From Escherichia phage vB_EcoM_ESCO47, in the sequence record OM386662.1: a stretch of 64,000 nt of DNA; one strand, 5' to 3'. The translations under genes and the position numbers were made by a program. Below the pieces are notes generated by a model that was given only the letters and a program-made list of their open reading frames with translations, did no database searches and was not told where the DNA came from. Shown piece after piece: positions 39,786 to 55,521 of the stretch. Position 1 is the first letter of the stretch. Each line of letters begins with the position of its first letter.

Positions 39786-40763
39786 ATGAGTATTACATCA
39801 AACGCAGTAAAACATGAAATCAATGTATTATGCTCCAAACAACTTCCGATTTGGTTTGCTACCAGCAATCGTCGCGAATCTCTTAATTATGAAGCGATCG
39901 CTGTTCAAGTTCATCAACTGTTAATTACTAAATTTGATTTCCATGTACCGTCAGAAATCTATATTAAGTTGGCTATTACGTTGCTTAAAGAGTGCAAAAA
40001 TTATGGTCGCTCTATGGCAGACGGTATTTTCAACGCGTTGAACAAGCTTAATGTTCTGTCAATGGTTAACTCAAACAATATTTTGCGTAATCTCGGACGT
40101 ACTGATCTGTTCTGTCGTGAAAAAGGTAAAATGACACTCAAACAGATCGCCCATCATCTCAACCAGAACCAGTCTAGGTTTATCGCAGTATCGGCACGGT
40201 TACAGACTGGTCTGAATCGTCAGATGAATTTTAAAACGTTTTCAAAATATCCGGGTTATAACGAATTCTTTAAATGCGAAGTCCAGAACATTGGTGGTAA
40301 AACCGTGTTGGTTGTTCGTGTAACATTTGAAGGACGTCGTCAGCATTATTTTAATATTATCGGGTCCGGCCTTCAACATTTAGGTTTTATCGACGAAGTT
40401 AAGATTTTACGTCAACCGAACGGATTCTCGATTGGGTACGAATGCACGTTAAAAGATGAGTTTTTAGAAAAAGCTCCTCCTAAATTCGTTGAAGCACCGC
40501 CGATTATGGCAACACGTGATATTGCCGAAGAAGACAAGCTTCAAGAGCTTATCGACAATCTTGAATCAGGATTTGATCAACCTGTACAGAAATTTAAATC
40601 AAAACATGCTGAACAAATCAAATATTTTGAAGAACTGATTAATGAGCTTAATGTAACTATTCAACAGACTGACGATGAAATCTCTCGATTAGCCGGTATG
40701 AATGGTAAAAATAAAACCGAACGAGCTAATCTTATTCAGGTTGTAAAACTTCTTAAGGAATGA
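39786..40763 (+). CDS. Hypothetical protein with C-terminal coiled coil (paralog pair A)
   Basis: 325 aa; GAGGAA RBS; upstream CCAAGGAYGG...TATAAT element shared with next gene. Confidence 0.5.
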   Translation: MSITSNAVKHEINVLCSKQLPIWFATSNRRESLNYEAIAVQVHQLLITKFDFHVPSEIYIKLAITLLKECKNYGRSMADGIFNALNKLNVLSMVNSNNILRNLGRTDLFCREKGKMTLKQIAHHLNQNQSRFIAVSARLQTGLNRQMNFKTFSKYPGYNEFFKCEVQNIGGKTVLVVRVTFEGRRQHYFNIIGSGLQHLGFIDEVKILRQPNGFSIGYECTLKDEFLEKAPPKFVEAPPIMATRDIAEEDKLQELIDNLESGFDQPVQKFKSKHAEQIKYFEELINELNVTIQQTDDEISRLAGMNGKNKTERANLIQVVKLLKE

Positions 40764-40821
40764 TGTACAACCAAGGACGGATGGAGTATAATCATTCTAT
40801 CTTAACCAAGAGGAGAACATT

Positions 40822-41775
40822 ATGAAAACTCGTTCACATTACATTGATTACTTTGCAGGTCTTATCGCTAACGTTCATGCCCAACGTGCTTCTGGTGTAC
40901 TAGGATTTGATGTTCCACACCGAGATGTAGTAAGTGGTATTCTTCGAGATTTTGGTACATACATAGGCCAAGAAAATCATATCTGTAAAGATACTCAAAA
41001 TGCATATTCTCATTCATTAGGGACACTGCTTCAATGGTTCAAACGTTCTCGTTTATTATCTTCTACTGTAGCTCGCGATAACATTAAAAACTTTATGAAG
41101 CCGAGCTTTATTAAATCTGTGACATCTAAAACCGATTTGGTTGAATTCACTATTGTTAATGATGTTAAAAAGACTCGTTTGGCTGATTGGTTAACTACCA
41201 TTCCTGAAACTAAATTTGCTGATAAATTTGCTTGTGAATTCAATAACCAAGTGAATATGCTTTTTAAACATTCTCGTAAATTATTCACAGGCGGCGATGA
41301 TCGTACAAATACAGTTCATGCTAAAGATTGGGTTACTGCAGTGTTCAAACCAACCGGTAATGGTACCGCATCATTATCAATTGATATTCAGGTTCCTTAT
41401 TATTACTCACGTAATCTCGGCACCATGAAAGCTGAAGAAATTAAGAAGCACAATAAAACCATTCGTTCGCTGACTTATAAACTTCGCATGATGTTAAGAA
41501 TCATGGACGTGGTAGAAATGTATGATGAAACCGAAGATAACGGTTCAATGTTATTCAGTTCTCGTATTCAAATTAAGCTGAAGAACCCTAATACGTATAA
41601 ACCTAAGCCTATTAAAGAACCTAAAGTAGAAAAAGTTGATAATTTAAGAGAAGAACGCGAATATCTCAAATCTCGTCTGAAAGAAGTCGAAGCCCAGATT
41701 GCAGAACAAACTAAATCGTTAAAAGCTCTGAATGCGAAAGCGGATGGTTTACGAAATGCCATTGAGGTTTTATAA
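40822..41775 (+). CDS. Hypothetical protein with C-terminal coiled coil (paralog pair B)
   Basis: 317 aa; AGAGGAG RBS; similar size and architecture to 39786-40763. Confidence 0.5.
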   Translation: MKTRSHYIDYFAGLIANVHAQRASGVLGFDVPHRDVVSGILRDFGTYIGQENHICKDTQNAYSHSLGTLLQWFKRSRLLSSTVARDNIKNFMKPSFIKSVTSKTDLVEFTIVNDVKKTRLADWLTTIPETKFADKFACEFNNQVNMLFKHSRKLFTGGDDRTNTVHAKDWVTAVFKPTGNGTASLSIDIQVPYYYSRNLGTMKAEEIKKHNKTIRSLTYKLRMMLRIMDVVEMYDETEDNGSMLFSSRIQIKLKNPNTYKPKPIKEPKVEKVDNLREEREYLKSRLKEVEAQIAEQTKSLKALNAKADGLRNAIEVL

Positions 41776-42080
41776 TGAAACTACGTCTTTTAGAGGATAT
41801 TGATATGAACACTAATCACCGCTTGGTTAAGTTTATTGACGATAGTTCAAAGATTGAATTTGTTCAGCGAGATAAAATCCACGGTGAAGAAGAGTTCGTT
41901 CCTCCGGCATGGAACGAAATAATGAAAATGGTTGAACGACGTGAAAATGCTGCCAAATCGGCAGCAAAACATCCATGCCCGGAATGTGGAACTATCCAAG
42001 TCCAACTGGTTAACTGGACCACTGATAACTTGAAATTGAAATGTCGTAAATGCTTCCACAAATTTGAGAGAACATTATAA
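41775..42080 (+). CDS. Zinc-ribbon hypothetical protein
   Basis: CPECG...CRKC four-Cys motif; ATGA coupling. Confidence 0.45.
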   Translation: MKLRLLEDIDMNTNHRLVKFIDDSSKIEFVQRDKIHGEEEFVPPAWNEIMKMVERRENAAKSAAKHPCPECGTIQVQLVNWTTDNLKLKCRKCFHKFERTL

Positions 42081-42493
42081 TGAGATATAGCCTTCGTTGT
42101 TTTATTGCAGCTTTAGTTTTTGTCATCATTCCATTCATTTGGAGCAGCCAGAATACTTACATGGAAACTAAAGTAATTCCTGTGGAGGTAGTGGAATTAA
42201 TCTCAGGCCAATCTACAGGAAAATATTCTAAATTGGAATTTATTGCAGTTTATAAAGATGAACAAGGTCGAGTTTTTGACAGGCATGTATCTCCATCATT
42301 TTATACGCTTCTGAATAAAGGTGATACGATAGCTATAGAAATTCGTGAGATGGATATCAAACAAACTACTAAAGATAACCTGATTTGGTTCTTTGGTACA
42401 GTGTTGATGTTCTCTATCGGTATCACAGGTTTTATTACATGTATTGTATTTGGTGTTGCATATTTAATCGATGAAAGGAAAAATAATGTTTAA
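42080..42493 (+). CDS. Membrane protein
   Basis: N- and C-terminal TM segments. Confidence 0.45.
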   Translation: MRYSLRCFIAALVFVIIPFIWSSQNTYMETKVIPVEVVELISGQSTGKYSKLEFIAVYKDEQGRVFDRHVSPSFYTLLNKGDTIAIEIREMDIKQTTKDNLIWFFGTVLMFSIGITGFITCIVFGVAYLIDERKNNV

Positions 42494-42749
42494 AGTGTAT
42501 GGTTATGACTCTACTATTCATAAATGCATTTATTGTGATAATGCGAAACGATTGCTGACTGTTAAGAAACAGCCATTCGAATTCATTAATGTTATGCCAG
42601 AAAAAGGTGTGTTCGACGATGAGAAAATTGCTGAGCTTCTGGTTAAGCTTGGACGTGAATCACAAGTCGGATTGACTATGCCTCAAGTGTTTGCTCCTGA
42701 CGGAAGTCACATTGGTGGATTTGACCAACTGCGAGAATATTTTAAATGA
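42486..42749 (+). CDS. nrdC: Thioredoxin/glutaredoxin NrdC
   Basis: MFKVYGYDSTIHKCIYCDNAKRLL... matches recalled T4 NrdC, CxYC active site; start set at MFKVY. Confidence 0.9.
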   Translation: MFKVYGYDSTIHKCIYCDNAKRLLTVKKQPFEFINVMPEKGVFDDEKIAELLVKLGRESQVGLTMPQVFAPDGSHIGGFDQLREYFK

Positions 42750-43081
42750 ACGATATTGATTTCGCCAAAGCATATAAATTTGTAGCAACTCTTCTCGGCC
42801 CTGACGCTCCTACTAAGCTTGAAGTTTTAAATTCGATTCCGACTTCATTGGTTCGAGATGCTGAAATATGGACATGGGACGACCCGGCTGTTTGTGAAGA
42901 CCTGTATATTCTGATGAATGACTTGATGGTTAAAAAGCCTGAAACAATGGTTACTATTACTGCTGAAGAATATAATCGCCTACAAGCCATAGAAGAGCTT
43001 CTGTGGAACATTGAATCAGCTTTGCCGTCTGGACTAGAATCCTGGATTGATTATGAAGAGCTCAATAAACTCCGCGGTTAA
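42746..43081 (+). CDS. Hypothetical protein
   Basis: 111-aa ATGA-coupled ORF. Confidence 0.45.
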   Translation: MNDIDFAKAYKFVATLLGPDAPTKLEVLNSIPTSLVRDAEIWTWDDPAVCEDLYILMNDLMVKKPETMVTITAEEYNRLQAIEELLWNIESALPSGLESWIDYEELNKLRG

Positions 43082-43130
43082 ACCGTGGTATTCGGCTCGA
43101 TGGGAGACTGTCGAGCCGGACGTCGAAACA

Positions 43131-43162
43131 GTTTACAACGACGAAGAAACATGTTATGATGA
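43131..43162 (+). promoter_or_regulatory. T4-type early promoter
   Basis: GTTTAC ... TGTTATGAT. Confidence 0.4.
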
Positions 43163-43200
43163 ACCTTCAATAAATGAATTAATTGATATGGAGTATGGTT

Positions 43201-43614
43201 ATGAATATTTCTGAAACTCGCGGTAAATGGTTCAAGATTGTTAAAGAAGATGAAGAACTACAAGCCAAGTTTCCTGAATTAAAGAAAGGAACAATCATCA
43301 AGGTAATTGGTATTTCAACAACGGCTGACCTGTCTGGTGGCATCGTTGAAGTGATGTTGTCTACTGGCGAGAAACTTTGCATCAACGACCGTGATATTGG
43401 TTTTTGGTGTTTCTGGGAATCTGATTCAATAGATGAACTCGAAGAAATTGACCAAGTAGTTCGTGACAGTGAACTACTTGGTGAATTCGAAGGGGAACGT
43501 ATTTCTTATGCTTTAGCTAAATTAGCCGCACAAGAAAATAATGACGGCTATGAAGGTAATCTGATGCAAGCCGCAGCGGAATACATTGAATATTTAGAAA
43601 GACGTTTAAGTTAA
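43201..43614 (+). CDS. Hypothetical acidic protein
   Basis: Start chosen at third ATG with GGAG RBS. Confidence 0.45.
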   Translation: MNISETRGKWFKIVKEDEELQAKFPELKKGTIIKVIGISTTADLSGGIVEVMLSTGEKLCINDRDIGFWCFWESDSIDELEEIDQVVRDSELLGEFEGERISYALAKLAAQENNDGYEGNLMQAAAEYIEYLERRLS

Positions 43615-43623
43615 AGGTTTATT

Positions 43624-43803
43624 ATGAAAACTGAATTATTTTATGGCGAAAGAAAAAATGGACAAAAATCCTGGAAATTTGTTATGACTGGGGCTCCAAA
43701 CAATCCGACTATGGCTACTTCAATTATTTCAGTAACACGTCCTACTAAGAAAATGATTCGTCAATATAAACGTTTTCATCGAGACTTTTATAACGTTTAC
43801 TAA
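43624..43803 (+). CDS. Small basic protein (59 aa)
   Basis: AAAGG RBS; below ORF-track cutoff. Confidence 0.35.
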   Translation: MKTELFYGERKNGQKSWKFVMTGAPNNPTMATSIISVTRPTKKMIRQYKRFHRDFYNVY

Positions 43804-43805
43804 AT

Positions 43806-43813
43806 TATAAATA
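43806..43813 (+). promoter_or_regulatory. T4 late promoter (gene 49)
   Basis: TATAAATA 30 nt upstream of gene 49 ATG, followed by a short hairpin. Confidence 0.6.
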
Positions 43814-43842
43814 CCCTTATCTATTTAAGGTAAGGGTTTATC

Positions 43843-44316
43843 ATGTTATTATCAGGCGCAAAATATAAAGAAGAAAAACAAAAATTTTATGATGCACAGA
43901 ATGGTAAGTGTCCTATTTGCCACCGTGAATTAGACCCTGATGTTCAAGGTAACCATCTTGACCACGACCACGAATTAAACGGGCCAAAAGCCGGTAGAGT
44001 TCGTGGATTACTCTGTAATCTGTGCAACGCAGCAGAAGGTCAAATGAAGCATAAGTTCAACCGTTCCGGTCTTAAAGGCTGTGATGTCGACTACCTAGAA
44101 TGGCTTGAAGCTCTTCTTGCTTATTTGAAACAAGATTATTCTGATAATAATATCCATCCTAATTTTGTTCCAGACAAAACTAAAGAGTTCTCAAGACTAT
44201 GTAAAGAGGAAATGATGGCTGAGATGCTTCAAAGAGGATTTGAATATAATGAATCTGATACTAAAACACAATTAATAGCTTCATTCAAAAAGCAGCTTAG
44301 AAAGAGTTTAAAATGA
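43843..44316 (+). CDS. 49: Endonuclease VII (Holliday junction resolvase) gp49
   Basis: 157 aa MLLSGAKYKEEKQKFYDAQNGKCPICHREL...HLDHDHELNGPKAGRVRGLLCNLCN matches recalled T4 gp49; late promoter upstream. Confidence 0.9.
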   Translation: MLLSGAKYKEEKQKFYDAQNGKCPICHRELDPDVQGNHLDHDHELNGPKAGRVRGLLCNLCNAAEGQMKHKFNRSGLKGCDVDYLEWLEALLAYLKQDYSDNNIHPNFVPDKTKEFSRLCKEEMMAEMLQRGFEYNESDTKTQLIASFKKQLRKSLK

Positions 44317-46130
44317 AAATCGAAAAAGAAATTGAAGGATTAATTCATAAAACTAATAAAGATCTTTTGAACGAGAATGCTAATAAAGATTCTCGTGTTT
44401 TTCCAACTCAACGGGACCTTATGGCTGGTATTGTGTCTAAGCACATTGCCAAAAATATGGTCCCGTCTTTTATTATGAATGCGCATGAAAGCGGAATCAT
44501 TCACATGCATGATATTGATTATTCTCCTGCTCTTCCGTTTACTAATTGCTGTTTAGTCGATTTAAAGGGGATGCTTGAGAATGGATTTAAATTAGGCAAT
44601 GCTCAAATTGAAACGCCTAAATCTATTGGCGTTGCTACTGCAATTATGGCACAAATTACTGCACAAGTTGCTTCACACCAGTATGGCGGAACTACATTTG
44701 CGAATGTTGATAAAGTTCTTTCTCCTTATGTTAAACGCACATACGCTAAACATGTTGAAGATGCAGAAAAATGGCAAATACCAGACATTCTGAATTATGC
44801 TCAATCCAAAACAGAAAAAGATGTCTATGACGCATTCCAAGCTTACGAATATGAAGTGAACACGTTATTCAGTTCAAACGGACAAACTCCTTTTGTTACT
44901 ATAACATTTGGAACAGGAACTGATTGGACTGAACGAATGATTCAGAAGGCAATTCTTAAAAACCGCATTAAAGGCCTTGGTCGTGATGGAATAACTCCTA
45001 TTTTTCCTAAACTTGTTATGTTTGTTGAAGAAGGTGTTAATCTTTATAAAGATGATCCGAACTATGATATTAAACAGCTTGCTCTAGAGTGCGCAAGCAA
45101 AAGAATGTATCCTGATATTATTTCAGCTAAGAACAATAAAGCTATCACTGGCTCATCTATTCCTGTTTCTCCAATGGGTTGCCGCAGTTTCTTGAGTGTG
45201 TGGAAAGATTCAACCTGTAATGAAATTCTTGACGGACGTAATAATCTCGGTGTTGTAACACTGAATCTTCCTCGTATCGCATTGGATTCTTATATTGGAA
45301 CACAGTTCAATGAACAGAAATTTATCGAATTATTTAATGAACGAATGGATTTATGTTTTGAAGCTTTGATGTGTAGAATTAGTTCCTTAAAAGGAGTTAA
45401 AGCGACTGTTGCTCCTATTCTTTATCAAGAAGGTGCATTCGGGGTTCGTCTTAAACCTGATGACGACATAATTGAGTTATTTAAAAACGGTAGAAGTTCA
45501 GTGTCTTTGGGATACATTGGTATTCACGAATTGAATATTCTTGTTGGACGCGATATTGGGCAAGAAATTTTAACTAAAATGAATGCTCATCTTAAACAGT
45601 GGACTGAAAGAACTGGATTTGCTTTTAGTTTATATTCTACTCCTGCTGAAAACCTTTGTTATCGCTTCTGTAAACTCGATACAGAAAAATATGGAAGTGT
45701 AAAAGATGTTACCGATAAAGGTTGGTACACTAACAGTTTCCATGTTTCAGTAGAAGAAAATATTACTCCATTTGAAAAGATTTCTCGTGAAGCGCCATAT
45801 CATTTCATTGCGACAGGTGGTCACATTTCTTATGTCGAACTTCCTGATATGAAAAATAACTTAAAAGGACTTGAGGCTGTGTGGGATTATGCTGTACAAC
45901 ATTTAGATTATTTTGGTGTTAATATGCCAGTAGATAAATGTTTTACATGTGGAAGTACCCATGAAATGACTCCTACTGAAAACGGATTTGTTTGTTCAGT
46001 TTGTGGAGAAACTGATCCTAAAAAGATGAATACCATAAGAAGAACATGTGGTTATTTGGGAAATCCGAACGAACGCGGATTTAATCTAGGTAAAAATAAA
46101 GAAATCATGCATAGGGTTAAACACCAATGA
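44313..46130 (+). CDS. nrdD: Anaerobic ribonucleoside-triphosphate reductase NrdD
   Basis: 605 aa (same as spliced T4 NrdD); C-terminal Cys cluster CFTCGS...CSVCGE and glycyl-radical region; uninterrupted ORF. Confidence 0.9.
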   Translation: MKIEKEIEGLIHKTNKDLLNENANKDSRVFPTQRDLMAGIVSKHIAKNMVPSFIMNAHESGIIHMHDIDYSPALPFTNCCLVDLKGMLENGFKLGNAQIETPKSIGVATAIMAQITAQVASHQYGGTTFANVDKVLSPYVKRTYAKHVEDAEKWQIPDILNYAQSKTEKDVYDAFQAYEYEVNTLFSSNGQTPFVTITFGTGTDWTERMIQKAILKNRIKGLGRDGITPIFPKLVMFVEEGVNLYKDDPNYDIKQLALECASKRMYPDIISAKNNKAITGSSIPVSPMGCRSFLSVWKDSTCNEILDGRNNLGVVTLNLPRIALDSYIGTQFNEQKFIELFNERMDLCFEALMCRISSLKGVKATVAPILYQEGAFGVRLKPDDDIIELFKNGRSSVSLGYIGIHELNILVGRDIGQEILTKMNAHLKQWTERTGFAFSLYSTPAENLCYRFCKLDTEKYGSVKDVTDKGWYTNSFHVSVEENITPFEKISREAPYHFIATGGHISYVELPDMKNNLKGLEAVWDYAVQHLDYFGVNMPVDKCFTCGSTHEMTPTENGFVCSVCGETDPKKMNTIRRTCGYLGNPNERGFNLGKNKEIMHRVKHQ

Positions 46131-46597
46131 ATTATGATAGATTTTATCCTTGTGATTTTGTGAATGGCCCTGGTTGCAGGGTCGTTCTTTTCGTTACAGG
46201 TTGTTTGCATAAATGCGAAGGGTGTTATAATAAATCAACATGGAATGCTAGAAATGGTATTCCATTCACTGGTGAAACACTAGAACAATTAATTGAATGT
46301 TTGAATAATGATTATATAGAAGGATTGACTATAACCGGAGGTGACCCTCTCTATCCTGATAACAGAGATGTGATTCACTCCGTGGTTCAAACTATTAAAA
46401 ATCTTTATCCAAATAAAAGCATTTGGTTGTGGACAGGATATAAGTTTGAAGATATTAAACAACTAGAAATGCTTAAATATGTTGATGTTATTATTGATGG
46501 GAAGTATGAGAAAAATCTTCCGACCAAAAAACTGTGGCGAGGATCAGATAATCAGCGACTTTGGTCAAATACCGATGGGGTGTGGAAACATGATTAA
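46127..46597 (+). CDS. nrdG: Anaerobic RNR activating enzyme NrdG
   Basis: Radical-SAM Cys cluster GCLHKCEGC; 156 aa as in T4; ATGA-coupled to nrdD. Confidence 0.9.
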   Translation: MNYDRFYPCDFVNGPGCRVVLFVTGCLHKCEGCYNKSTWNARNGIPFTGETLEQLIECLNNDYIEGLTITGGDPLYPDNRDVIHSVVQTIKNLYPNKSIWLWTGYKFEDIKQLEMLKYVDVIIDGKYEKNLPTKKLWRGSDNQRLWSNTDGVWKHD

Positions 46598-46712
46598 ATT
46601 GAATTACATTATGGATACTATAAATGGTATGATTTTTAATTTTGGTCCAGAATTTTATTCGCAATACAGTTTAGTGCTTATCAATGCTTGGTTAATCAAT
46701 TAAGGGTAAAAT

Positions 46713-46928
46713 ATGTATAAATTTCGTAAAGGTTTAGCTGATTTTCTTACAACTGTAACGTTCTTTTTGTTTATGGCAGTTGGAGCTATTTTTCTTATTC
46801 CTTTTACTGTTGTATTTTTCATGATTAGTTTAATTTCTCCGGAAAAGGGTTTATCCTCCAGCGAATTCAATGAACGTTTGGACAAAATTACTAATAAACT
46901 GAATTCTGTTCTTGATAAAAAGGCTTAA
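46713..46928 (+). CDS. Small membrane protein
   Basis: Two TM segments. Confidence 0.45.
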   Translation: MYKFRKGLADFLTTVTFFLFMAVGAIFLIPFTVVFFMISLISPEKGLSSSEFNERLDKITNKLNSVLDKKA

Positions 46929-46930
46929 TT

Positions 46931-47242
46931 ATGATTAGTTTTGAGCGGTATGTGGTGGAGAGATGGAATGGGTTTGATATGTTCGGTAATGACTATTATT
47001 TCTATGAATGTAGTCTAAATCCTAGTTTCTGGGCCGGACGTGAATCTGATCTCGAAGAAATTAATGCTCGCGCCGACCTGTTAGGTGAACTCCCTACAGT
47101 ATACTTTAGCTTTGACGAGTCAGGTTTCGTTATCCAAGTTTATTTTCCTGAAGAAAATTCAGGTGATGATTCTGTTAACCCGCCTTATTGGGCTTACCAG
47201 GGGATTATTTCTCGTGGAACAAAACAAGAACCTACAGAATAA
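46931..47242 (+). CDS. Hypothetical protein
   Basis: 103-aa ORF with AAAAGG RBS. Confidence 0.45.
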   Translation: MISFERYVVERWNGFDMFGNDYYFYECSLNPSFWAGRESDLEEINARADLLGELPTVYFSFDESGFVIQVYFPEENSGDDSVNPPYWAYQGIISRGTKQEPTE

Positions 47243-47537
47243 AATTGAAATCTACGGTATCCCTGAAGAAGTTGGTCGTTGTCCTGGATGCCATATGGTC
47301 ACAAAACTTTTAAAGGAACTCAATGCTCCTTTTACCTTTTATAAAGTCCTCACTAATAATGGTAAGATTGAATATGACCGTCCTTTAATCGTATCTCTTG
47401 CTAAACGTGCAGGATTCACTTCACTTAATATTCGTTATCCTGTCATATTTTTAAATGATAAGAAACAAAAGAATATTGCAGAGTTTAAAGAGTCTCTAAT
47501 TTCATTAGGATATGACTCTGATATAATCGAAGATTGA
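47166..47537 (+). CDS. nrdH: Glutaredoxin-like protein (NrdH-like); start uncertain
   Basis: CPGC redox motif in KIEIYGIPEEVGRCPGCHMV; only in-frame ATG (47166) overlaps previous gene in another frame; domain begins near 47241 without canonical start. Confidence 0.45.
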   Translation: MILLTRLIGLTRGLFLVEQNKNLQNKIEIYGIPEEVGRCPGCHMVTKLLKELNAPFTFYKVLTNNGKIEYDRPLIVSLAKRAGFTSLNIRYPVIFLNDKKQKNIAEFKESLISLGYDSDIIED

Positions 47538-47559
47538 CCAGGAGCCGTCTGGTCTTCTT
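47535..47559 (+). terminator. Intrinsic terminator candidate after glutaredoxin gene
   Basis: GACCAG-GAGCCGT-CTGGTC followed by TTCTTT. Confidence 0.5.
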
Positions 47560-47645
47560 TAACCCACTTCCTATATAATCTATTAGATTTCTTTCCTCTT
47601 TATCACAGTGTGCCCCTCTCAAATCAAAAATATTTTCATAAAGCA

Positions 47646-47678
47646 GTTTACTTTTGCCTATGGTGTGATACAGTAGTA
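47646..47678 (+). promoter_or_regulatory. T4-type early promoter
   Basis: GTTTAC ... TGTGATACAGT. Confidence 0.45.
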
Positions 47679-47702
47679 TTAACAACGTGTAAAGGAGCTC
47701 GT

Positions 47703-48113
47703 ATGAAGATACAAACTGATTCTACCCTAACCGAGCTCCATGAGCAAATAGAAGAACTCGGACTACCATGGTTTGAAGTTCCAATTTATGATTTCACAAT
47801 AGTGCCCTTGACTCCTGAAGATGAGGATGTCGCATCAGAGATATTTGAAGATGTTGAAATCGGTGATTCGTATGGTGTGACTCTTTCGTACAGTTCTGTT
47901 ATAGTTCTTACGATAAACTTGAATGAATCATGGGTGAACACCTTAGCGCATGAAATCGTTCATATCAAAAACAGTATTGCGGCGCATAAAGGGATAAAGT
48001 GGTGTGTAAACAATGACGAGGCTGAAGCCTACCTAGTCGGATGGTTATCTGAACAACTTTTTAAATTTTACACAAATCGTTTAAAAACAGTTTACACACC
48101 AAATGATAAGTGA
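47703..48113 (+). CDS. Putative zinc metallopeptidase-motif protein
   Basis: HExxH motif LAHEIVHIK; start set at MKIQTDS with AAGGAG RBS. Confidence 0.45.
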   Translation: MKIQTDSTLTELHEQIEELGLPWFEVPIYDFTIVPLTPEDEDVASEIFEDVEIGDSYGVTLSYSSVIVLTINLNESWVNTLAHEIVHIKNSIAAHKGIKWCVNNDEAEAYLVGWLSEQLFKFYTNRLKTVYTPNDK

Positions 48114-48130
48114 TACTATCGACCTATCAA
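48090..48130 (+). promoter_or_regulatory. T4-type early promoter (inside 3' end of upstream gene)
   Basis: GTTTAC ... TGATACTAT ... CCTATCAA. Confidence 0.5.
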
Positions 48131-48147
48131 CTACCGATGAGAACATT

Positions 48148-48330
48148 ATGCTTATCAAAGATAAAGAAATTAAAGTTGACTGGTATTATTCGGTAAATGG
48201 CTATCCTGTACAGGTAACCAAAGTGACTGACCAAGATGTATGGTATCGTCCTTTGAAACGGCCTGACTCACCATTAATGGTATGTAATCATTCGGTGTTT
48301 TGTTCGGTAGCAAAGGAAATTAAATCATGA
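48148..48330 (+). CDS. Hypothetical protein
   Basis: Start set at MLIKDKEIK downstream of early promoter. Confidence 0.4.
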   Translation: MLIKDKEIKVDWYYSVNGYPVQVTKVTDQDVWYRPLKRPDSPLMVCNHSVFCSVAKEIKS

Positions 48331-48575
48331 GCCTGAAAATACACGCAAAGAGAAATGTTATTACCCTGAATCTTGACGACGAACGTTTGATTTTTATTAC
48401 TATCACAGATAAAAATATTGAAATTGCTAATGGTCCTAAGGCTTATTGCTGTCCTGTTAAGAATTGGAAACACGTAACATTTCTTACTTTAGGCGACCTC
48501 CTTGAAGATATTAAATTGGATTTAGGAATTCGAGATATCCAATACATTAAAAATATTATTGATGCTAACTGCTGA
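48327..48575 (+). CDS. Hypothetical protein
   Basis: 82-aa ATGA-coupled ORF. Confidence 0.45.
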   Translation: MSLKIHAKRNVITLNLDDERLIFITITDKNIEIANGPKAYCCPVKNWKHVTFLTLGDLLEDIKLDLGIRDIQYIKNIIDANC

Positions 48576-48583
48576 GGTAACTA

Positions 48584-48876
48584 TGGGTAAAACTATCCGT
48601 CGTAAAGAATTGACTGTAAAAGATTTTTATTATTCAGGACGCCGTAAAGCACCTGACGGTGTAAGTCAGGATCAAGTTGAAGAAAATATCTTCCGTTCCG
48701 ATAAGTGGAAACGTATGCGCGGAACCAGTTCTGAAGTTAAAAAGCATCAAAGCAGCCTTTTACGAGGCGAAGTAAGAAAATTGAAAAAAGATGTTTACAG
48801 TAAAGAGGATTATGATTATAATACTTCTCATACTGAAGCCAAACGTAAAGCCAATGAATGTTTCAAATACAGTTGA
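48584..48876 (+). CDS. Hypothetical basic protein
   Basis: Start MGKTIRRK with GAGGT RBS. Confidence 0.45.
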
Positions 48877-48885
48877 GGAAATTGA

Positions 48886-49036
48886 TATGACTATTTTAAC
48901 AGAATCCGTAAAACGCACTCTCTACAAGCAAGGTCTTTATTCACTGCCACGTGCTCCTAAAGCAGATTCAAGCAAATGGACCCTGGCAAAGTGGATTAAG
49001 TTTATTGACGAAAATGGGACTTGGAACACAAAATGA
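48886..49036 (+). CDS. Hypothetical small protein
   Basis: Start MTILTESVK after GAGGAAATTGATATG junction (same junction precedes 49309). Confidence 0.35.
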
Positions 49037-49233
49037 ACACTGAAAATATTGTGTCATGGCAACTTCGTGAAGAACGCGCCGAATTCTTTGCCAACATGAA
49101 ACTCAACGGTGTTGAGGACGAAGACTTTTTACGCTGGTTCTGGATTTACAAATATAAAGAATGCCAACATGCCGTGCTATTGACTTGCGCAGTTATGTAC
49201 GAAGGCTGGAAAGGTGCCAAAAAGTTCGGATAA
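49033..49233 (+). CDS. Hypothetical protein
   Basis: ATGA-coupled start MNTENIV. Confidence 0.4.
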   Translation: MNTENIVSWQLREERAEFFANMKLNGVEDEDFLRWFWIYKYKECQHAVLLTCAVMYEGWKGAKKFG

Positions 49234-49236
49234 CGA

Positions 49237-49271
49237 TTTACAAACTCTTGGGAGTAGAGTATAATACTCCC
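49237..49271 (+). promoter_or_regulatory. Sigma70-type promoter with -10 embedded in a palindrome (second copy)
   Basis: TTTACA-N17-TATAAT; inverted repeat GGGAGTA / TACTCCC with compensatory changes relative to copy at 21218. Confidence 0.5.
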
Positions 49272-49308
49272 AATGGATAATAAAATTTTAATTACCGAGG
49301 AAATTGAT

Positions 49309-49641
49309 ATGTCTACTGAAATCAAAAATGTTGTTAACTCCTTTGCCTACGATAAAGTTGTAGATCTGATGGAAAAAGGCAATTCTGTTACTCCTCAAAT
49401 TCTTGATGCATGGGAAGCGCGCCTTTATGAAATCATGCAGAAACATGATCAAAAAATCGGACGTAATTCAATTCGTGAAATTCTGGTTCAGTACATTCTC
49501 TCTGAATTTGATGTTGCAGCATTTGGTGTTGAATCAAAAGCTTACCAGAAACATGAAATCTCTGAAACGACTATCCGTCGTATGAAGAATCAGCGTAAGA
49601 AAAAATTCGTTGACCTGAAAATTGTTAAGGCGGCAAAATGA
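49309..49641 (+). CDS. Hypothetical protein
   Basis: Start MSTEIKNVV after GAGGAA RBS; sigma70-type promoter upstream. Confidence 0.45.
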   Translation: MSTEIKNVVNSFAYDKVVDLMEKGNSVTPQILDAWEARLYEIMQKHDQKIGRNSIREILVQYILSEFDVAAFGVESKAYQKHEISETTIRRMKNQRKKKFVDLKIVKAAK

Positions 49642-49865
49642 GCTTAAACGAAACTTTGATTAATGACCTTCGTTTAGCTGGTTATGAAGTAAACACCAAT
49701 AACATTGGTTTGATTCAGATCGAAGGTCCTGGATTTATTTTAGAACATGAATTCAATCAGTGGTGGTTATATGAATCATATGACGATTCACTGCATTTTG
49801 AATACGTCGACCAGTTTGATCGTTTAGATGATGCTCTGGAAGCGGCTAAGTCGATGAGTCTATAG
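49638..49865 (+). CDS. Hypothetical acidic protein
   Basis: 75-aa ATGA-coupled ORF. Confidence 0.45.
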   Translation: MSLNETLINDLRLAGYEVNTNNIGLIQIEGPGFILEHEFNQWWLYESYDDSLHFEYVDQFDRLDDALEAAKSMSL

Positions 49866-49879
49866 TCGATAGTATCTCG

Positions 49880-49917
49880 TGCTTTAAGACGGGTCTTCAA
49901 ATATTATGATATAATAG
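49880..49917 (+). promoter_or_regulatory. Promoter upstream of gene 55 (class uncertain)
   Basis: TGCTTTA box-like element, TGATATAAT extended -10 and CCTATGAA start region. Confidence 0.35.
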
Positions 49918-49944
49918 ACCTATGAATTGAGCCAAGAGGTACTT

Positions 49945-50505
49945 ATGACTAATGTAAAGTTAACCAAAAATAACTATGTAAATAACAAAGAGCTTCTCGC
50001 TGCTATAACGGAGTGGAAAAAGGAGCTCCTAAATAATAAAGACCATAATAAAATTGTTCGACAGAATGATACAATAGGGTTGGCAATTATGCTAATTGCT
50101 GAAGGTCTCTCTAAACGTTTTAACTTTTCAGGATACACCCAGTCTTGGAAACAAGAAATGATTGCCGACGGAATTGAAGCTTCTATTAAAGGACTTCATA
50201 ATTTTGATGAGACTAAATACACTAACCCACATGCATACATAACTCAAGCTTGTTTTAATGCTTTTGTCCAACGTATCAAAAAAGAGCGTAAGGAAGTTGC
50301 AAAGAAATATAGTTACTTCGTTCATAATGTCTATGACAGCCATGACGATGATATGGTAGCGTTGGTAGATGAAACCTTTATTCAGGACATTTACGATAAA
50401 ATGACGCATTACGAAGAATCTGCTTATAAAGCTCCTGGGGCTGAAAAGAAGGAAACTGTTCGCGATTCACCAAGTTTGGATTTTTTATATGAGGACGACA
50501 ATTGA
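49945..50505 (+). CDS. 55: Late-transcription sigma factor gp55
   Basis: [20 protein letters not shown]...[47 protein letters not shown] matches recalled T4 gp55; start set at MTNVKL with AGAGGT RBS. Confidence 0.9.
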
Positions 50506-50707
50506 CATCTCTAATTTTTTAGAAGAACCATTTGATGAAGCATTACCTTATTCCGTAAAAATGTTGGGTCGAGAAGCATTTAAAATTAATTTCGATATCG
50601 ACCCTTTAAATCCACATGACGTATCCTTTTCAATTAATGGACAAGAAGTTGAGTACACGTTTAGTATTGAAGAGGATGGACGTTTTTATTTTAATTTGAT
50701 GAGATAA
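50489..50707 (+). CDS. Hypothetical protein
   Basis: 72-aa ORF overlapping gene 55 end; start uncertain. Confidence 0.35.
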
Positions 50708-50708
50708 T

Positions 50709-51074
50709 ATGAATACCGAGATTATTGAAAGCGCTGAACATAAATTGGCTAAAGAATTTGAAGAAATTCGTGAAGCCGAAAACAAAGAAGCCGAAGATAA
50801 AGTAGCCAAAATGCTACAAGAAATCCAAAAGAAAAATGAAGCTGAAGCCGCTAAGAAAGCCGAAAAGATTCTTAAAAAGAATCGCGGTGAACTCAACCGT
50901 CTTTATGCTCATGCGCAAGAAGCTGCAATTCAAAATAACTTCGAAGCTTATGAATACGCTATTAAAAAATCTCGTGATATTCTGCGTCAACCTTACACCG
51001 ACGAATTGATTAAAATTCAGTGGGTTACCACTCGTCAGGCTATTGAGGATATCATTAATGGCATTAGTAAATAA
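50709..51074 (+). CDS. Hypothetical helical protein
   Basis: 121-aa ORF, Glu/Lys/Ala-rich. Confidence 0.45.
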   Translation: MNTEIIESAEHKLAKEFEEIREAENKEAEDKVAKMLQEIQKKNEAEAAKKAEKILKKNRGELNRLYAHAQEAAIQNNFEAYEYAIKKSRDILRQPYTDELIKIQWVTTRQAIEDIINGISK

Positions 51075-51258
51075 ACCATTTAAACGGCTTCTAGTAGGAG
51101 CCGCTTTTAGACTTCGCTCTTATGGTGATATTTGTATCAAGCAGTCCGAAACCGAATACAAAATGATTGGACGTACGTCTGATGGTATTTTTCAGATTGA
51201 GCCTGTAGCGAAGGTATGGGTAGATTCACATCAACTTAAAAAATGGTGGCAGCGTTGA
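51058..51258 (+). CDS. Hypothetical protein
   Basis: Start MALVNKPF with GAGGA RBS; followed by intrinsic terminator. Confidence 0.4.
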   Translation: MALVNKPFKRLLVGAAFRLRSYGDICIKQSETEYKMIGRTSDGIFQIEPVAKVWVDSHQLKKWWQR

Positions 51259-51266
51259 ATAATTTA

Positions 51267-51293
51267 AAGGAAGCACTAGTGCTTCCTTTTTTT
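51267..51293 (+). terminator. Intrinsic terminator
   Basis: AGGAAGCAC-TA-GTGCTTCCT palindrome followed by TTTTTTT. Confidence 0.7.
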
Positions 51294-51317
51294 GCTTTCT
51301 ATACGGGATGATAGAAT
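51291..51317 (+). promoter_or_regulatory. MotA-dependent middle promoter candidate (genes 47/46)
   Basis: TTTGCTTTC, 12 bp, -10 TAGAAT; directly after terminator. Confidence 0.45.
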
Positions 51318-51341
51318 GAATTATCTTAATGAGGAAATGAT

Positions 51342-52361
51342 ATGAAAATTTTGCAATTAGGTGACTTCCATATCGGGGTCAAACAAGACGACCCATGGGT
51401 TCAAGATATTCAGCGTGACGGCATTCGACAAGCAATTGAGTATTCTAAGAAAAACGGAATTAACACATGGATTCAATATGGTGATTGGTTTGATGTCCGT
51501 AAAGCAATAACACATCGCACAATGGAATTTAACCGTGAACTGGTCAACATGATTACTAAAGCTGGTATTCGTGTCCATGTAACTATCGGGAATCATGACA
51601 TTGCGTTCAAGAATACAATAACACCAAATACGGTTTCTGAACTACTTACCCAATTTGAAAACTTTACAATCTATGAACATCCAACTACAGTAGATTTCGA
51701 CGGTTGTCTTATTGATATTATTCCATGGATGTGTGAAGAGAATACAGGCGAAATCTTAGAACATATCAAAACGAGTTCAGCCGCGTATTGTGTTGGGCAC
51801 TGGGAACTGAATGGCTTTTATTTCTATAAAGGAATGAAGTCTCATGGGCTTGAACCTGATTTCTTAAAGACTTATAAACAAGTCTGGTCCGGCCACTTCC
51901 ACACAATCTCTGAAGCTGCTAACGTCAAATATATTGGGACACCATGGACCCTTACTGCAGGTGATGAGAATGATCCTCGCGGATTCTGGGTATTTGACAC
52001 TGATGTTGAACGTATGGAATTTATTCCTAATGAAACAACATGGCATCGACGAATCACTTATCCGTTTAAAGGCAAAATCAATTATTCTGATTATACTAAT
52101 CTAGCCGTACGTGTTATAGTATCAGAAATTGATTCAGAGTTGACTAAGTTTGAATCTGAACTTGAAAAAGTAGTTCACTCTCTTCGTATGGTTTCTAAAG
52201 TTGATAACAGTGTTGAATCTGATGACGACCAGGAAATCGAGATTAAATCACTTCAAGATATCATTAAAGAATATATTGACGCGATTCCAGATATCTCGGA
52301 CGAAGACAGAGAAGCGCTGGTCAAATATTCCAACGAACTTTATATTGAGGCAACACAATGA
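51342..52361 (+). CDS. 47: Recombination endonuclease subunit gp47 (Mre11-like)
   Basis: MKILQLGDFHIGVKQDDPWVQ...; phosphoesterase motifs GDxHxG, GNHD; 339 aa as T4 gp47. Confidence 0.95.
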   Translation: MKILQLGDFHIGVKQDDPWVQDIQRDGIRQAIEYSKKNGINTWIQYGDWFDVRKAITHRTMEFNRELVNMITKAGIRVHVTIGNHDIAFKNTITPNTVSELLTQFENFTIYEHPTTVDFDGCLIDIIPWMCEENTGEILEHIKTSSAAYCVGHWELNGFYFYKGMKSHGLEPDFLKTYKQVWSGHFHTISEAANVKYIGTPWTLTAGDENDPRGFWVFDTDVERMEFIPNETTWHRRITYPFKGKINYSDYTNLAVRVIVSEIDSELTKFESELEKVVHSLRMVSKVDNSVESDDDQEIEIKSLQDIIKEYIDAIPDISDEDREALVKYSNELYIEATQ

Positions 52362-52615
52362 CTTTAGATGAATTTAACAATGCTGGACTCAGGCTTGAAG
52401 TTGAAATGGACGTTAAAGATGATGATGGATTCGAGAACACTATCAAGTATTGGATTGAGCCATTACGCGTTGAAGGCAATGAAGTTAAAGCAGTTCATGT
52501 CTGCACCGACTGGGCTATTGAATTTAGCTTTAATATAATGGACGACGATACTCCTGGCTCTATTCTTAAAATGGCTGAAGCATGTATCAAGGATGCGTAT
52601 AATGACGAAGACTGA
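52358..52615 (+). CDS. Hypothetical protein (T4 46.2 position)
   Basis: 85-aa ATGA-coupled ORF. Confidence 0.45.
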   Translation: MTLDEFNNAGLRLEVEMDVKDDDGFENTIKYWIEPLRVEGNEVKAVHVCTDWAIEFSFNIMDDDTPGSILKMAEACIKDAYNDED

Positions 52616-52841
52616 TTATGAAATCCATCGTCATGAATTTAGTATTGATGACGGTTATATTGGTGTCGTTGAATGGACTGAGAATTACGAGGAGACAACT
52701 CCTCGTTTCTTTGGAACAATGTATGTTACCTGTGAGTACGCACCGGGTGTTGTTATGTATGCAGAACTAGATGAATATTTTGCTGATAGAGATGACATGT
52801 TAAAATATGTAGAGGACTTCATTCGAAGAGAATACATATGA
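52593..52841 (+). CDS. Hypothetical protein (T4 46.1 position)
   Basis: 82-aa ORF with AAGGA RBS. Confidence 0.45.
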   Translation: MRIMTKTDYEIHRHEFSIDDGYIGVVEWTENYEETTPRFFGTMYVTCEYAPGVVMYAELDEYFADRDDMLKYVEDFIRREYI

Positions 52842-54526
52842 AATCATTTAAATTAAATCGTGTTCGTTATAAAAATATAATGTCTGTTGGGCAAAATTTT
52901 ATCGATATCCAATTAGATAAAGTCCAAAAGACCTTAATCACAGGTAAAAATGGTGGTGGTAAATCTACGATGTTAGAAGCCATCACTTTTGGACTTTTCG
53001 GCAAACCATTTCGTGATGTTAAGAAAGGACAAATCATTAATAGCACGAACAAGAAAGAGCTCTTAGTTGAGCTTTGGATGGAATTCGATGATAAAAAATA
53101 CTTCATCAAACGAGGTCAAAAGCCCAATATTTTCGAAATCTCCGTTGACGGTGTTCGTCTCGATGAATCTGCCAGCAGTCGTGACTTCCAAGAAGAATTT
53201 GAACGTAGCATCGGAATGTCCTATGCGTCTTTTAAACAAATCGTCGTTCTTGGTACAGCAGGGTATACCCCTTTCATGGCTCTTAGCACCCCAGCTCGTA
53301 GAAAACTTGTCGAAGACCTTTTAGAAGTCGGCACACTCGCTGAAATGGATAAAATCAATAAGTCTCAAGTTCGCGAACTTAATTCCCGGGGGCAAGTTCT
53401 CGATGCCAAGAAAGATGGTGTTATCCAACAAATTAAGATTTATAATGAGAATATCGAACGTCAAAAGAAATTATCCGGTGATAATGTAGCTCGTCTACAG
53501 AATATGTATGATGACCTGGCTAAAGAAGCTCGGTCATTAAAAGCAGAAATCGAAGAAGCTAATGAGCGACTACTTAATATCGTTCTTGACGAAGACCCTA
53601 CTGAGGCATTCAACAAGATAGGACAAGAAGCATTATTGATTAAATCTAAAATTGACTCATATAACAAAGTTATTAAGATGTATCATGACGGCGGTACATG
53701 TCCTACTTGTGCATCACAGTTGCACCAGGGTGATCCTATTGTCTCTAAGATTACCGATAAGCTTCATGAATGTAATCACTCATTCGAGCAACTTACCTGT
53801 CACAGAGATAATCTGAGTGTCCTAGTGGACGAATATAGAGCTAATGTTAAGACTAAACAGGACCTTGCATCTGATATTCGTACCAAGAAACAAGCAATGA
53901 TTGCCACTATTGATAAAGCTAAGAAAGTTAAAGCTGCAATAGAGCAAGCCTCAGCAGAATTTATCGACCATGCCGATGAGATAGCTTTGCTTCAAAAAGA
54001 ACTTGATAAAATCATTAAAACAAAATCGGATATCGTTCTTGAAAAATACCATCGTGGTATTATCACAGATATGTTAAAAGATTCTGGTATTAAAGGTGCT
54101 ATCATTAAAAAATATGTGCCTCTGTTCAACAAGCAGATTAACCATTACCTTAAAATCATGGAAGCTGATTACGTGTTTTCTATTGATGAAGAATTCAATG
54201 AATCTATAAAATCCCGTGGTCGTGAAGATTTTAGTTATGCTTCATTTAGCCAAGGTGAAAAAGCACGTATTGATATCGCTTTATTGTTCACATGGCGAGA
54301 TATTGCTGAAAAGGTTTCTGGTGTTAGAATCAATACATTAATTATGGACGAAGTCATGGATTCCGCGACTGATTCTGAAGGTATTAAAGCTATTTCAACA
54401 ATTCTTAACTCTCTAACCGATGCAAACGTGTTTATAATTAGTCACAGAGACCATGACCCACAAGCTTATGGACAACATCTTCAAATGAGCAAAGTTGGAC
54501 GATTTACTGTAATGAAAGCCTCTTAA
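52838..54526 (+). CDS. 46: Recombination endonuclease subunit gp46 (Rad50/SbcC-like ATPase)
   Basis: Walker A GKNGGGKST, long coiled coil with CPTC zinc hook, signature SQGEKARIDIAL, Walker B LIMDEV; 562 aa. Confidence 0.95.
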   Translation: MKSFKLNRVRYKNIMSVGQNFIDIQLDKVQKTLITGKNGGGKSTMLEAITFGLFGKPFRDVKKGQIINSTNKKELLVELWMEFDDKKYFIKRGQKPNIFEISVDGVRLDESASSRDFQEEFERSIGMSYASFKQIVVLGTAGYTPFMALSTPARRKLVEDLLEVGTLAEMDKINKSQVRELNSRGQVLDAKKDGVIQQIKIYNENIERQKKLSGDNVARLQNMYDDLAKEARSLKAEIEEANERLLNIVLDEDPTEAFNKIGQEALLIKSKIDSYNKVIKMYHDGGTCPTCASQLHQGDPIVSKITDKLHECNHSFEQLTCHRDNLSVLVDEYRANVKTKQDLASDIRTKKQAMIATIDKAKKVKAAIEQASAEFIDHADEIALLQKELDKIIKTKSDIVLEKYHRGIITDMLKDSGIKGAIIKKYVPLFNKQINHYLKIMEADYVFSIDEEFNESIKSRGREDFSYASFSQGEKARIDIALLFTWRDIAEKVSGVRINTLIMDEVMDSATDSEGIKAISTILNSLTDANVFIISHRDHDPQAYGQHLQMSKVGRFTVMKAS

Positions 54527-55239: not shown

Positions 55240-55284
55240 TTACTAAATCCTTATTTGATACAGCAACAGATAAATTGATAAACC

Positions 55285-55292
55285 TATTTATA
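55285..55292 (-). promoter_or_regulatory. T4 late promoter (HNH endonuclease gene)
   Basis: TATAAATA on minus strand 46 nt upstream of the HNH gene start. Confidence 0.5.
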
Positions 55293-55508: not shown

Positions 55509-55521
55509 AGAGAGAAATAAT

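What the first reader, a model, noticed from the sequence alone, without database searches (positions are those of the whole stretch)
47085..47537. Glutaredoxin domain ORF without a canonical start
The CPGC glutaredoxin domain begins near 47241 (KIEIYGIPEEVGRCPGCHMV) immediately after the stop of the upstream ORF, but the only in-frame ATG is at 47166, inside that upstream ORF in another frame, and no ATG/GTG/TTG lies at the domain boundary. Possibilities are an overlapping gene, reinitiation at a non-canonical codon (ATT at 47244), or a frameshift.
Basis: seen in the sequence. Interest (0 to 1): 0.4.

Follow-up and report, generated by a model that had tools for sequence, protein, structure and literature searches.

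The report
Phage nrdH glutaredoxin with GTG start

Summary
The upstream ORF stops at 47240-47242, and 47166 is the only in-frame ATG. It has the best Shine-Dalgarno match of any in-frame candidate (AGGGG, 47199-47203).

- **Same start in relatives.** This GTG is the annotated nrdH start in T4, RB69, RB14, Mizar, SF, VR26, MX01 and UP19.
- **No alternative in several relatives.** In T4, VR26, UPEC01, MX01 and a metagenomic relative, an in-frame stop lies 3-4 codons upstream of it. No other canonical start is possible there.
- **Frame switch.** Among Mosigvirus-type relatives, 22 of 25 variable sites in 47085-47213 fall on codon position 3 of the upstream ORF, which is position 2 of the glutaredoxin frame. 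Downstream of 47243, 51 of 73 fall on glutaredoxin position 3.
- **The ATG is not conserved.** ATG 47166 is AGG in RB69 and Mizar.

The gene is therefore nrdH at 47214-47537 (107 aa, 89% identical to T4 NrdH). It overlaps the RB69ORF082c-like gene by 29 nt and ends at a terminator. The ATT-reinitiation and frameshift ideas have no support. The N-terminus has not been determined experimentally. This is already known and of low interest.

The parts
47214..47537 (+). nrdH coding sequence (T4-type glutaredoxin, 107 aa, plus TGA stop at 47535-47537)
   Evidence: 89% identity to T4 NrdH NP_049686 and 90% over the full 107 aa to RB14 NrdH. Pfam Glutaredoxin and PHROG 22 thioredoxin domain. Same start position as annotated in Mizar, SF and RB69.
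47214..47216 (+). GTG start codon of nrdH
   Evidence: Conserved as GTG in every Tequatrovirus, Mosigvirus, Gaprivervirus and Dhakavirus relative examined. In-frame stops lie 3-4 codons upstream of it in T4, VR26, UPEC01, MX01 and L010.
47199..47203 (+). Shine-Dalgarno-like AGGGG, 10 nt upstream of the GTG
   Evidence: Anti-SD duplex of -6.5 kcal/mol, the best of all in-frame candidates. Relatives have AAGGA at this position, and the Mizar record annotates an RBS there.
47214..47242 (+). 29-nt overlap between the 3' end of the upstream ORF and the 5' end of nrdH
   Evidence: Coordinates. The coding-frame signal switches across this segment.
47280..47291 (+). CPGC redox-active motif (TGT CCT GGA TGC)
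   Evidence: Read directly. It aligns with the CVYC/CGPC site of T4 glutaredoxin PDB 1AAZ/1ABA.
46931..47242 (+). RB69ORF082c-like gene (103 aa, function unknown)
   Evidence: PHROG 2749, E 1.1e-48. Variable sites fall on its third codon position, 25/33 and 22/25. Annotated in RB69, RB14, Mizar and SF; absent from T4.
46713..46928 (+). gp55.8-like predicted membrane protein gene
   Evidence: PHROG 1930, E 9e-36. The Mizar annotation calls it T4 55.8-like.
47536..47563 (+). intrinsic-terminator-like hairpin GACCAGGAGCCGTCTGGTC followed by TTCTTT, directly after nrdH
   Evidence: A terminator is annotated at the equivalent position in PhAPEC2.
44313..46597 (+). nrdD (44313-46130) and nrdG (46127-46597), the anaerobic ribonucleotide reductase genes upstream in the same direction
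   Evidence: Synteny with T4, RB69, Mizar and SF.

Best explanation
The region encodes the T4-type NrdH glutaredoxin-like protein of a Mosigvirus-related T4-like phage. Translation starts at the canonical alternative start codon GTG at 47214, read as fMet, with a Shine-Dalgarno-like AGGGG 10 nt upstream. This gives a 107-aa protein: a short, variable 9-residue N-terminal tail (MEQNKNLQN) followed by the thioredoxin-fold domain (KIEIYG...CPGC...). The start lies 29 nt inside the 3' end of the preceding gene, an RB69ORF082c homolog, in a different frame. The open frame back to 47085 is non-coding read-through in the nrdH frame. nrdH is the last gene of the nrdD-nrdG-55.8-ORF082c-nrdH run and is followed by a terminator. 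Shown: the position, conservation and context of the GTG, and the frame switch. Inferred: that ribosomes actually initiate there; that some coupling to translation of the upstream gene may occur; and that the protein acts as a thiol-disulfide reductant.
For: (1) GTG at 47214 is in frame and has the strongest anti-SD pairing of any in-frame ATG/GTG/TTG or near-cognate codon between 47085 and 47250. (2) The homologous GTG is the annotated start in T4, RB69, RB14, Mizar with an annotated RBS, SF RefSeq, VR26, MX01 and UP19. (3) In T4, VR26, UPEC01, MX01 and metagenomic locus L010, an in-frame stop lies 3-4 codons upstream of that GTG. It is then the only canonical start ahead of the domain. (4) T4 lacks the upstream ORF entirely yet keeps 'GTG-AAA-CAA-AAT'. 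So conservation of 'GTG xxx CAA AAY' does not come from the overlapping gene. (5) Codon-position test on the window plus nine Mosigvirus-type relatives: in 47085-47213, 22 of 25 variable sites are at position 3 of the upstream-ORF frame, which is position 2 of the nrdH frame. In 47243-47534, 51 of 73 are at position 3 of the nrdH frame. (6) The upstream ATG 47166 is AGG in Mizar, RB69, L005 and L006. (7) Wildcard pattern scans of IMG/VR across the start triplet found GTG in all 8 true nrdH contexts.
Against: No N-terminal sequence, proteomic or ribosome-profiling data for NrdH of T4 or any relative were found, so every cited start is an annotation. The 10-nt SD-to-start spacing is at the long end of the usual range. 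The window has AGGGG where relatives have AAGGA. The overlap segment 47214-47242 has only 5 variable sites, too few to show a coding signature of its own. A weak predicted hairpin (47197-47217) pairs the SD and GTG. It is not significant (z = -0.87) and its G-C pair is lost in relatives that have AAGGA.
Confidence: 0.93

Rival explanations
1. Translation starts further upstream in the same frame (ATG 47166, or GTG 47163, TTG 47112 or GTG 47085). This would give a 123-150-aa glutaredoxin with an N-terminal extension encoded in double-coding overlap with the upstream gene.
For: The frame is open back to 47085 and has an ATG at 47166. The PhAPEC2 record annotates a long 140-aa version from an upstream ATG.
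Against: 22 of 25 variable sites in 47085-47213 hit position 2 of this frame, so they are all non-synonymous. ATG 47166 is AGG in RB69, Mizar, L005 and L006. The ATG used in PhAPEC2 is ACG in the window. These candidates have weak or no SD, -1.0 to +0.7 kcal/mol. T4, VR26, UPEC01, MX01 and L010 have in-frame stops just upstream of the conserved GTG.
Confidence: 0.02
2. Ribosomes terminating at TAA 47240-47242 reinitiate at the non-canonical ATT at 47244. The protein would then begin at the domain boundary.
For: ATT is 1 nt past the upstream stop in this window. ATT is a known rare bacterial start codon (general knowledge, for example infC).
Against: The adjacency is not conserved. In SF, PhAPEC2, HX01 and RB69 the upstream ORF stops 6 nt further downstream, at TGA. 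In T4 there is no upstream ORF at this position. There is no SD, -0.7 kcal/mol. The equivalent codon is GTA or ATA in genera that have an ATG just before it. A conserved canonical GTG with an SD lies 30 nt upstream. Minor additional initiation at ATT cannot be excluded.
Confidence: 0.03
3. A programmed ribosomal frameshift near the end of the upstream ORF fuses the ORF082c-like protein to the glutaredoxin domain.
For: Only the geometry: the two ORFs overlap in different frames, with nrdH in the +1 frame relative to the upstream ORF.
Against: T4 has nrdH without the upstream gene. More distant genera have unrelated upstream genes and an ATG at the domain boundary. I saw no slippery motif shared across the aligned overlap sequences; this was by eye, not a formal search. 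The two proteins belong to separate PHROG families, each covered end to end.
Confidence: 0.01
4. The gene is decaying, or the sequence carries an error: the original ATG was lost and the domain is no longer expressed.
For: More distant genera do have an ATG right at the domain boundary.
Against: The nrdH frame downstream of 47243 shows strong third-position bias, 51 of 73 variable sites. The ORF is intact, and the same GTG architecture is conserved across four genera. tblastn found matches in 1,349 phage records, 1,268 of them covering at least 80% of the query.
Confidence: 0.01

Closest known systems
Bacteriophage T4 NrdH glutaredoxin (gene nrdH, NP_049686, 102 aa)
   Same: 89% identical over 100 residues. 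Same CPGC motif. Same GTG start followed by x-Gln-Asn. Same position downstream of nrdD, nrdG and 55.8, and upstream of 55.6.
   Different: The T4 N-terminal tail is 5 codons shorter (VKQNK versus VEQNKNLQNK). T4 lacks the ORF082c-like gene, so its GTG sits 2 nt after the 55.8 stop rather than inside an upstream gene. T4 uses AAGGA as its SD.
NrdH of RB69, RB14 and Mosigvirus phages (e.g. RB69 NP_861771, RB14 ACP30717, Mizar XXL68515)
   Same: Identical architecture: a 107-aa product in RB14 and Mizar, GTG start, overlap with the RB69ORF082c homolog and a terminator after the gene. 90% identical to RB14 NrdH over the full length.
   Different: A few substitutions in the tail (K5/Q8 versus S5/K8). 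SD AGGGG versus AAGGA. In several relatives the upstream ORF ends 6 nt later. RB69's own nrdH is truncated at the C-terminus (90 aa).
T4 glutaredoxin/thioredoxin NrdC (PDB 1AAZ, 1ABA, 1DE1, 1DE2)
   Same: Closest solved structure by sequence. The CxxC motif and the conserved Pro before beta-3 both align.
   Different: Only a distant paralog (E about 0.003-0.005). Different active-site dipeptide (VY versus PG). Encoded elsewhere in T4-type genomes.
Bacterial NrdH-redoxin (class Ib RNR reductant, E. coli NrdH)
   Same: Small CxxC redoxin associated with ribonucleotide reductase genes, and the same gene name.
   Different: No NCBIfam family, including any NrdH model that library holds, matched at E <= 0.01. 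The motif is CPGC rather than the CVQC I recall for E. coli NrdH (from memory, not tested). The neighbours are class III (nrdDG) genes, not class Ib. The shared name is historical and does not indicate orthology.

Membership tests
T4-type NrdH (Tevenvirinae nrdH) | Full-length sequence similarity to T4 NrdH | tested here: met
   89% identity over 100 aa, E 6e-69. 90% over 107 aa to RB14 NrdH.
T4-type NrdH (Tevenvirinae nrdH) | CPGC redox motif near the N-terminus of the domain | tested here: met
   TGT CCT GGA TGC at 47280-47291. Conserved in T4, RB14, VR26, MX01 and UP19.
T4-type NrdH (Tevenvirinae nrdH) | Synteny: downstream of nrdD-nrdG-55.8 and upstream of 55.6 | tested here: met
   The window carries one extra ORF (47703-48113) between nrdH and 55.6.
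T4-type NrdH (Tevenvirinae nrdH) | GTG start followed by x-Gln-Asn/Lys, as in T4 and its closest genera | tested here: met
   GTG GAA CAA AAC at 47214. The same is seen in 4 genera.
T4-type NrdH (Tevenvirinae nrdH) | Glutaredoxin (GSH-dependent) activity, as stated in the T4 record's note | not testable with these tools
   Biochemical property. Only the annotation note in NC_000866 is available.
Pfam Glutaredoxin PF00462 / thioredoxin fold | Score at or above the Pfam gathering threshold | tested here: met
   23.7 bits against a cutoff of 22.9, which is borderline. Supported by PHROG 22 'thioredoxin domain', E 3.6e-16.
Pfam Glutaredoxin PF00462 / thioredoxin fold | CxxC and the conserved Pro align with a solved glutaredoxin | tested here: met
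   Alignment to 1ABA/1AAZ: rCpgC against kCvyC, and ryPvif against tmPqvf. No structure was predicted here.
Bacterial NrdH-redoxin (class Ib) | Match to a curated NrdH-redoxin family model | tested here: not met
   NCBIfam scan returned no family at E <= 0.01.
Non-canonical initiation or programmed frameshift gene | No usable canonical start in frame; recoding signal conserved in homologs | tested here: not met
   A canonical GTG with an SD is present and conserved. Homologs initiate independently, T4 without the upstream ORF. No slippery motif was seen by eye in the aligned overlaps.

The most novel reading that the evidence does not exclude
The GTG start is conserved across four Tevenvirinae genera, whereas more distant genera use ATG. 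In ORF082c-carrying phages it is buried 29 nt inside the upstream gene, and in this window it is weakly paired with its SD. The most novel reading is that this is a selected device that throttles NrdH synthesis and couples it to translation of the upstream gene, rather than a neutral feature.
Probability: 0.2. Interest if true: 0.15.

Novelty: already known. Interest (0 to 1): 0.04.

Why it matters
It matters little biologically. It is a standard case of a GTG-initiated phage gene whose start overlaps the end of the preceding gene. The practical value is for annotation. The same locus is mis-annotated in several public genomes: too long in PhAPEC2, truncated past the active site in UPEC01, and missing in HX01. 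The comparative argument here fixes the correct start. That argument rests on in-frame stops in sister genera, T4's natural deletion of the upstream ORF, and the codon-position switch.

Tried and rejected
(1) Upstream starts at 47085, 47112, 47163 and 47166. Rejected on the substitution pattern, lack of conservation, weak SD and in-frame stops in relatives.

(2) ATT 47244 reinitiation. Rejected as the main mechanism.

(3) Frameshift fusion. Rejected.

(4) RNA structure around the start. A small hairpin pairs the SD with the GTG, but the fold is no better than shuffles (z = -0.87) and is not conserved.

(5) Wildcard pattern scans of IMG/VR across the start triplet. Four of the 12 matches had TTG, TAG or AAA at that position. 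All four proved to be chance matches in unrelated sequence, with no KIEIYG downstream.

(6) Literature. Miller et al. 2003 (PMC150520) is not held. Searches for T4 nrdH and for T4 ribosome profiling found no experimental N-terminus.

(7) Rfam found only the three tRNAs and nothing near the finding.

(8) Three family scans failed on a one-base frame error for the neighbouring ORF and were repeated (then 41-43).

The large protein database searches and structure prediction were deliberately not used, because the question was settled without them.

Full report
**What is there**

The window is a T4-like phage of the Mosigvirus type, about 92% identical to the nearest records over 20 kb. Around the finding the + strand carries:
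- endonuclease VII, 43843-44316
- nrdD, 44313-46130, and nrdG, 46127-46597
- a gp55.8-like membrane protein gene, 46713-46928
- a 103-aa ORF, 46931-47242

Pfam Glutaredoxin matches the flagged ORF just above threshold, at 23.7 against 22.9 bits. PHROG 22 'thioredoxin domain' matches at E 3.6e-16. The closest solved structure by sequence is T4 glutaredoxin NrdC, with the CxxC and the conserved proline aligned. The protein is 89% identical to T4 NrdH. A terminator-like hairpin follows at 47536-47554 with a T-rich tail. A terminator is annotated at the same place in PhAPEC2.

**Checking the observation**

- KIEIYG starts at 47241.
- The upstream ORF's TAA is at 47240-47242.
- The only in-frame ATG is at 47166.
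- None of the nine codons 47217-47243 is ATG, GTG or TTG.

However, the codon just before those nine, at 47214-47216, is an in-frame GTG. Ten nucleotides upstream of it lies AGGGG (47199-47203). I scored every in-frame canonical or near-cognate codon between 47085 and 47250 for pairing of its -20 to -4 region with the 16S rRNA 3' end. GTG 47214 scores -6.5 kcal/mol. ATG 47166 and GTG 47163 score -1.0, GTG 47085 scores +0.4, TTG 47112 scores +0.7 and ATT 47244 scores -0.7. The SD pairings of the neighbouring genes score -2.4 to -5.0.

**Comparative evidence**

A megablast of 46900-47600 finds 443 phage records. tblastn of the domain finds 1,349. I read the start context in 20 named phage records from at least ten genera, plus nine IMG/VR loci (some of which are the same genomes as named records).

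- **Annotated starts.** The position equivalent to 47214 is the annotated nrdH start in these phages:
  - Mizar, which also annotates an RBS at the equivalent of 47200-47203
  - the RefSeq record of SF
  - RB69 and RB14
  - VR26, MX01 and UP19
  - T4, whose nrdH (NP_049686) begins ...AAGGAATAGTT-GTG-AAA-CAA-AAT-AAG-ATT-GAA...
- **Conservation of the motif.** The motif 'GTG xxx CAA AAY/AAG' is conserved in Tequatrovirus, Mosigvirus, Gaprivervirus and Dhakavirus. It is followed by a leader of variable length: 4 codons in T4, 6 in VR26 and 9 in the window.
- **In-frame stops.** In T4 (TAG TAA GGA ATA GTT GTG), VR26 and L010 (TAA TTT CCT GTG), and MX01 and UPEC01 (TGA TTT CCT GTG), a stop sits 3-4 codons upstream of the GTG. 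In those phages no other canonical start precedes the domain.
- **T4's natural deletion.** T4 lacks the upstream ORF altogether and still keeps the GTG. RB14, in the same genus, has the ORF. So NrdH translation does not depend on that ORF. The conserved codons after the GTG are also not conserved on the ORF's account.
- **More distant genera.** Yersinia MHG19, Klebsiella phages, Erwinia Cronus, Salmonella SEA1, Enterobacter EC-W2 and Acinetobacter AM101 have an ATG 1-3 codons before the IEIYG-type strand. It usually overlaps the upstream stop.
- **Pattern scans.** Scans of IMG/VR with the start triplet left as a wildcard gave GTG in all eight true nrdH contexts. The four other matches were chance hits in unrelated sequence.

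**Where coding in the nrdH frame begins**

I aligned window 46931-47537 with nine Mosigvirus-type relatives. There are no gaps in the window row, and 137 sites vary.
- In 47085-47213, 22 of 25 variable sites fall on codon position 3 of the upstream ORF. That is position 2 of the nrdH frame, so every such change would alter an amino acid there.
- In 47243-47534, 51 of 73 variable sites fall on position 3 of the nrdH frame.

The coding frame therefore switches inside 47214-47242. That 29-nt segment has only five variable sites and is uninformative by itself.

The upstream candidates are also not conserved. ATG 47166 is AGG in Mizar, RB69, L005 and L006. The upstream ATG that the PhAPEC2 annotators chose is ACG in the window.

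The close juxtaposition of the upstream stop and the domain is not conserved either. An AAT-to-AAC change in SF, PhAPEC2, HX01 and RB69 moves the upstream stop 6 nt downstream.

**Mechanism**

The best explanation is ordinary SD-directed initiation at GTG 47214. This gives a 107-aa NrdH (MEQNKNLQN-KIEIYG...). Its first 29 nt overlap the end of the RB69ORF082c-like gene (PHROG 2749, E 1e-48).

Some translational coupling is plausible, because ribosomes finishing the upstream gene pass over the SD and the GTG. A weak predicted hairpin pairs the SD with the GTG. That fold is no better than shuffled sequence (z = -0.87), and its central G-C pair is lost in relatives with AAGGA. I therefore treat coupling as conjecture.

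Despite its name, the protein does not match curated bacterial families such as NrdH-redoxin. The NCBIfam scan found no family at E <= 0.01.

**Rivals**

- **Longer N-terminal extensions.** Excluded by the substitution pattern, non-conservation, weak SD and in-frame stops in relatives.
- **ATT reinitiation.** It has no SD and no conserved geometry, and it is unnecessary. It cannot be excluded as a trace event.
- **A frameshift fusion.** It has no support. T4 lacks the partner ORF, I saw no shared slippery motif by eye in the aligned overlaps, and the two proteins belong to separate families.
- **Gene decay.** Contradicted by strong third-position bias and wide conservation.

**Limits**

I found no experimental N-terminus for NrdH in any T4-like phage. 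The conclusion rests on comparative sequence evidence, which is strong.

**Verdict**

The feature is already known and ordinary. Its only practical use is to correct annotation. Public records disagree at this locus:
- PhAPEC2 annotates 140 aa from an upstream ATG.
- UPEC01 annotates 82 aa from an internal ATG just after the CPGC motif.
- HX01 annotates no gene here.

Noticed in passing
window 47703-48113 (+): An extra 136-aa ORF with a strong SD (AAAGGAG) and an HExxH motif (HEIVH) lies between the nrdH terminator and the 55.6-like gene. Nothing sits at this position in T4, RB69, Mizar, SF or PhAPEC2. Pfam and NCBIfam find nothing, and PHROG 1365 (unknown function) matches residues 63-125 only. 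tblastn against 50,697 phage records finds 11 matches, all under 60% identical (33-36% for those covering most of the ORF). All are in about 38-42 kb phages (ST231, sortregn, IME_EC2, Sortsne and others), and none is T4-like. This may be a horizontally acquired small metallopeptidase-like accessory gene.
   Followed up: partly
L003 (PhAPEC2) 1716-2138; L035 (UPEC01) 452-700; L014 (HX01) 601-894: Public annotations of this nrdH disagree. PhAPEC2 starts at a non-conserved upstream ATG (140 aa). UPEC01 starts at an internal ATG immediately after the CPGC motif, so the annotated protein lacks the active site. HX01 annotates no gene over the intact ORF.
   Followed up: yes
L022 (RB69 NC_004928) 4090-4362 (-): RB69's own nrdH is 90 aa and ends ...NDKKQRYCRV*, whereas the window and other relatives continue ...NDKKQKNIAEFKESLISLGYDSDIIED. 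This looks like a C-terminal frameshift or truncation in the RB69 reference sequence.
   Followed up: no
window 46931-47242; L004 (T4) versus L037 (RB14): The RB69ORF082c-like gene is present or absent within a single genus. RB14 and RB51 (Tequatrovirus) have it and T4 does not. In T4 the deletion ends just upstream of the nrdH GTG, and the last codons of 55.8 (AAG GAA TAG) supply the SD.
   Followed up: partly
window 54523-55239 (-): A 238-aa ORF lies on the opposite strand to all its neighbours, immediately after the 562-aa ORF at 52838-54526. It matches PHROG 655 'homing endonuclease' at E 2.7e-64, so it is a free-standing homing endonuclease gene.
   Followed up: partly
window 19419-19652 (+): A cluster of three tRNA genes (Met-CAT, Asn-GTT, Arg-TCT), found by both ARAGORN and Rfam.
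   Followed up: no
window 40000-60000: The best megablast identity to any of 50,697 phage records over 20 kb is about 92%, all to Mosigvirus-type phages at 85-88% coverage. The source phage is not in that collection and may be a distinct species.
   Followed up: no
window 47197-47217 (+): A predicted small hairpin (CCA.GGGA/UCUC.UGG) pairs the nrdH SD with the GTG start. The fold is not statistically distinguishable from shuffles, and it is weakened in relatives that carry AAGGA.
   Followed up: partly
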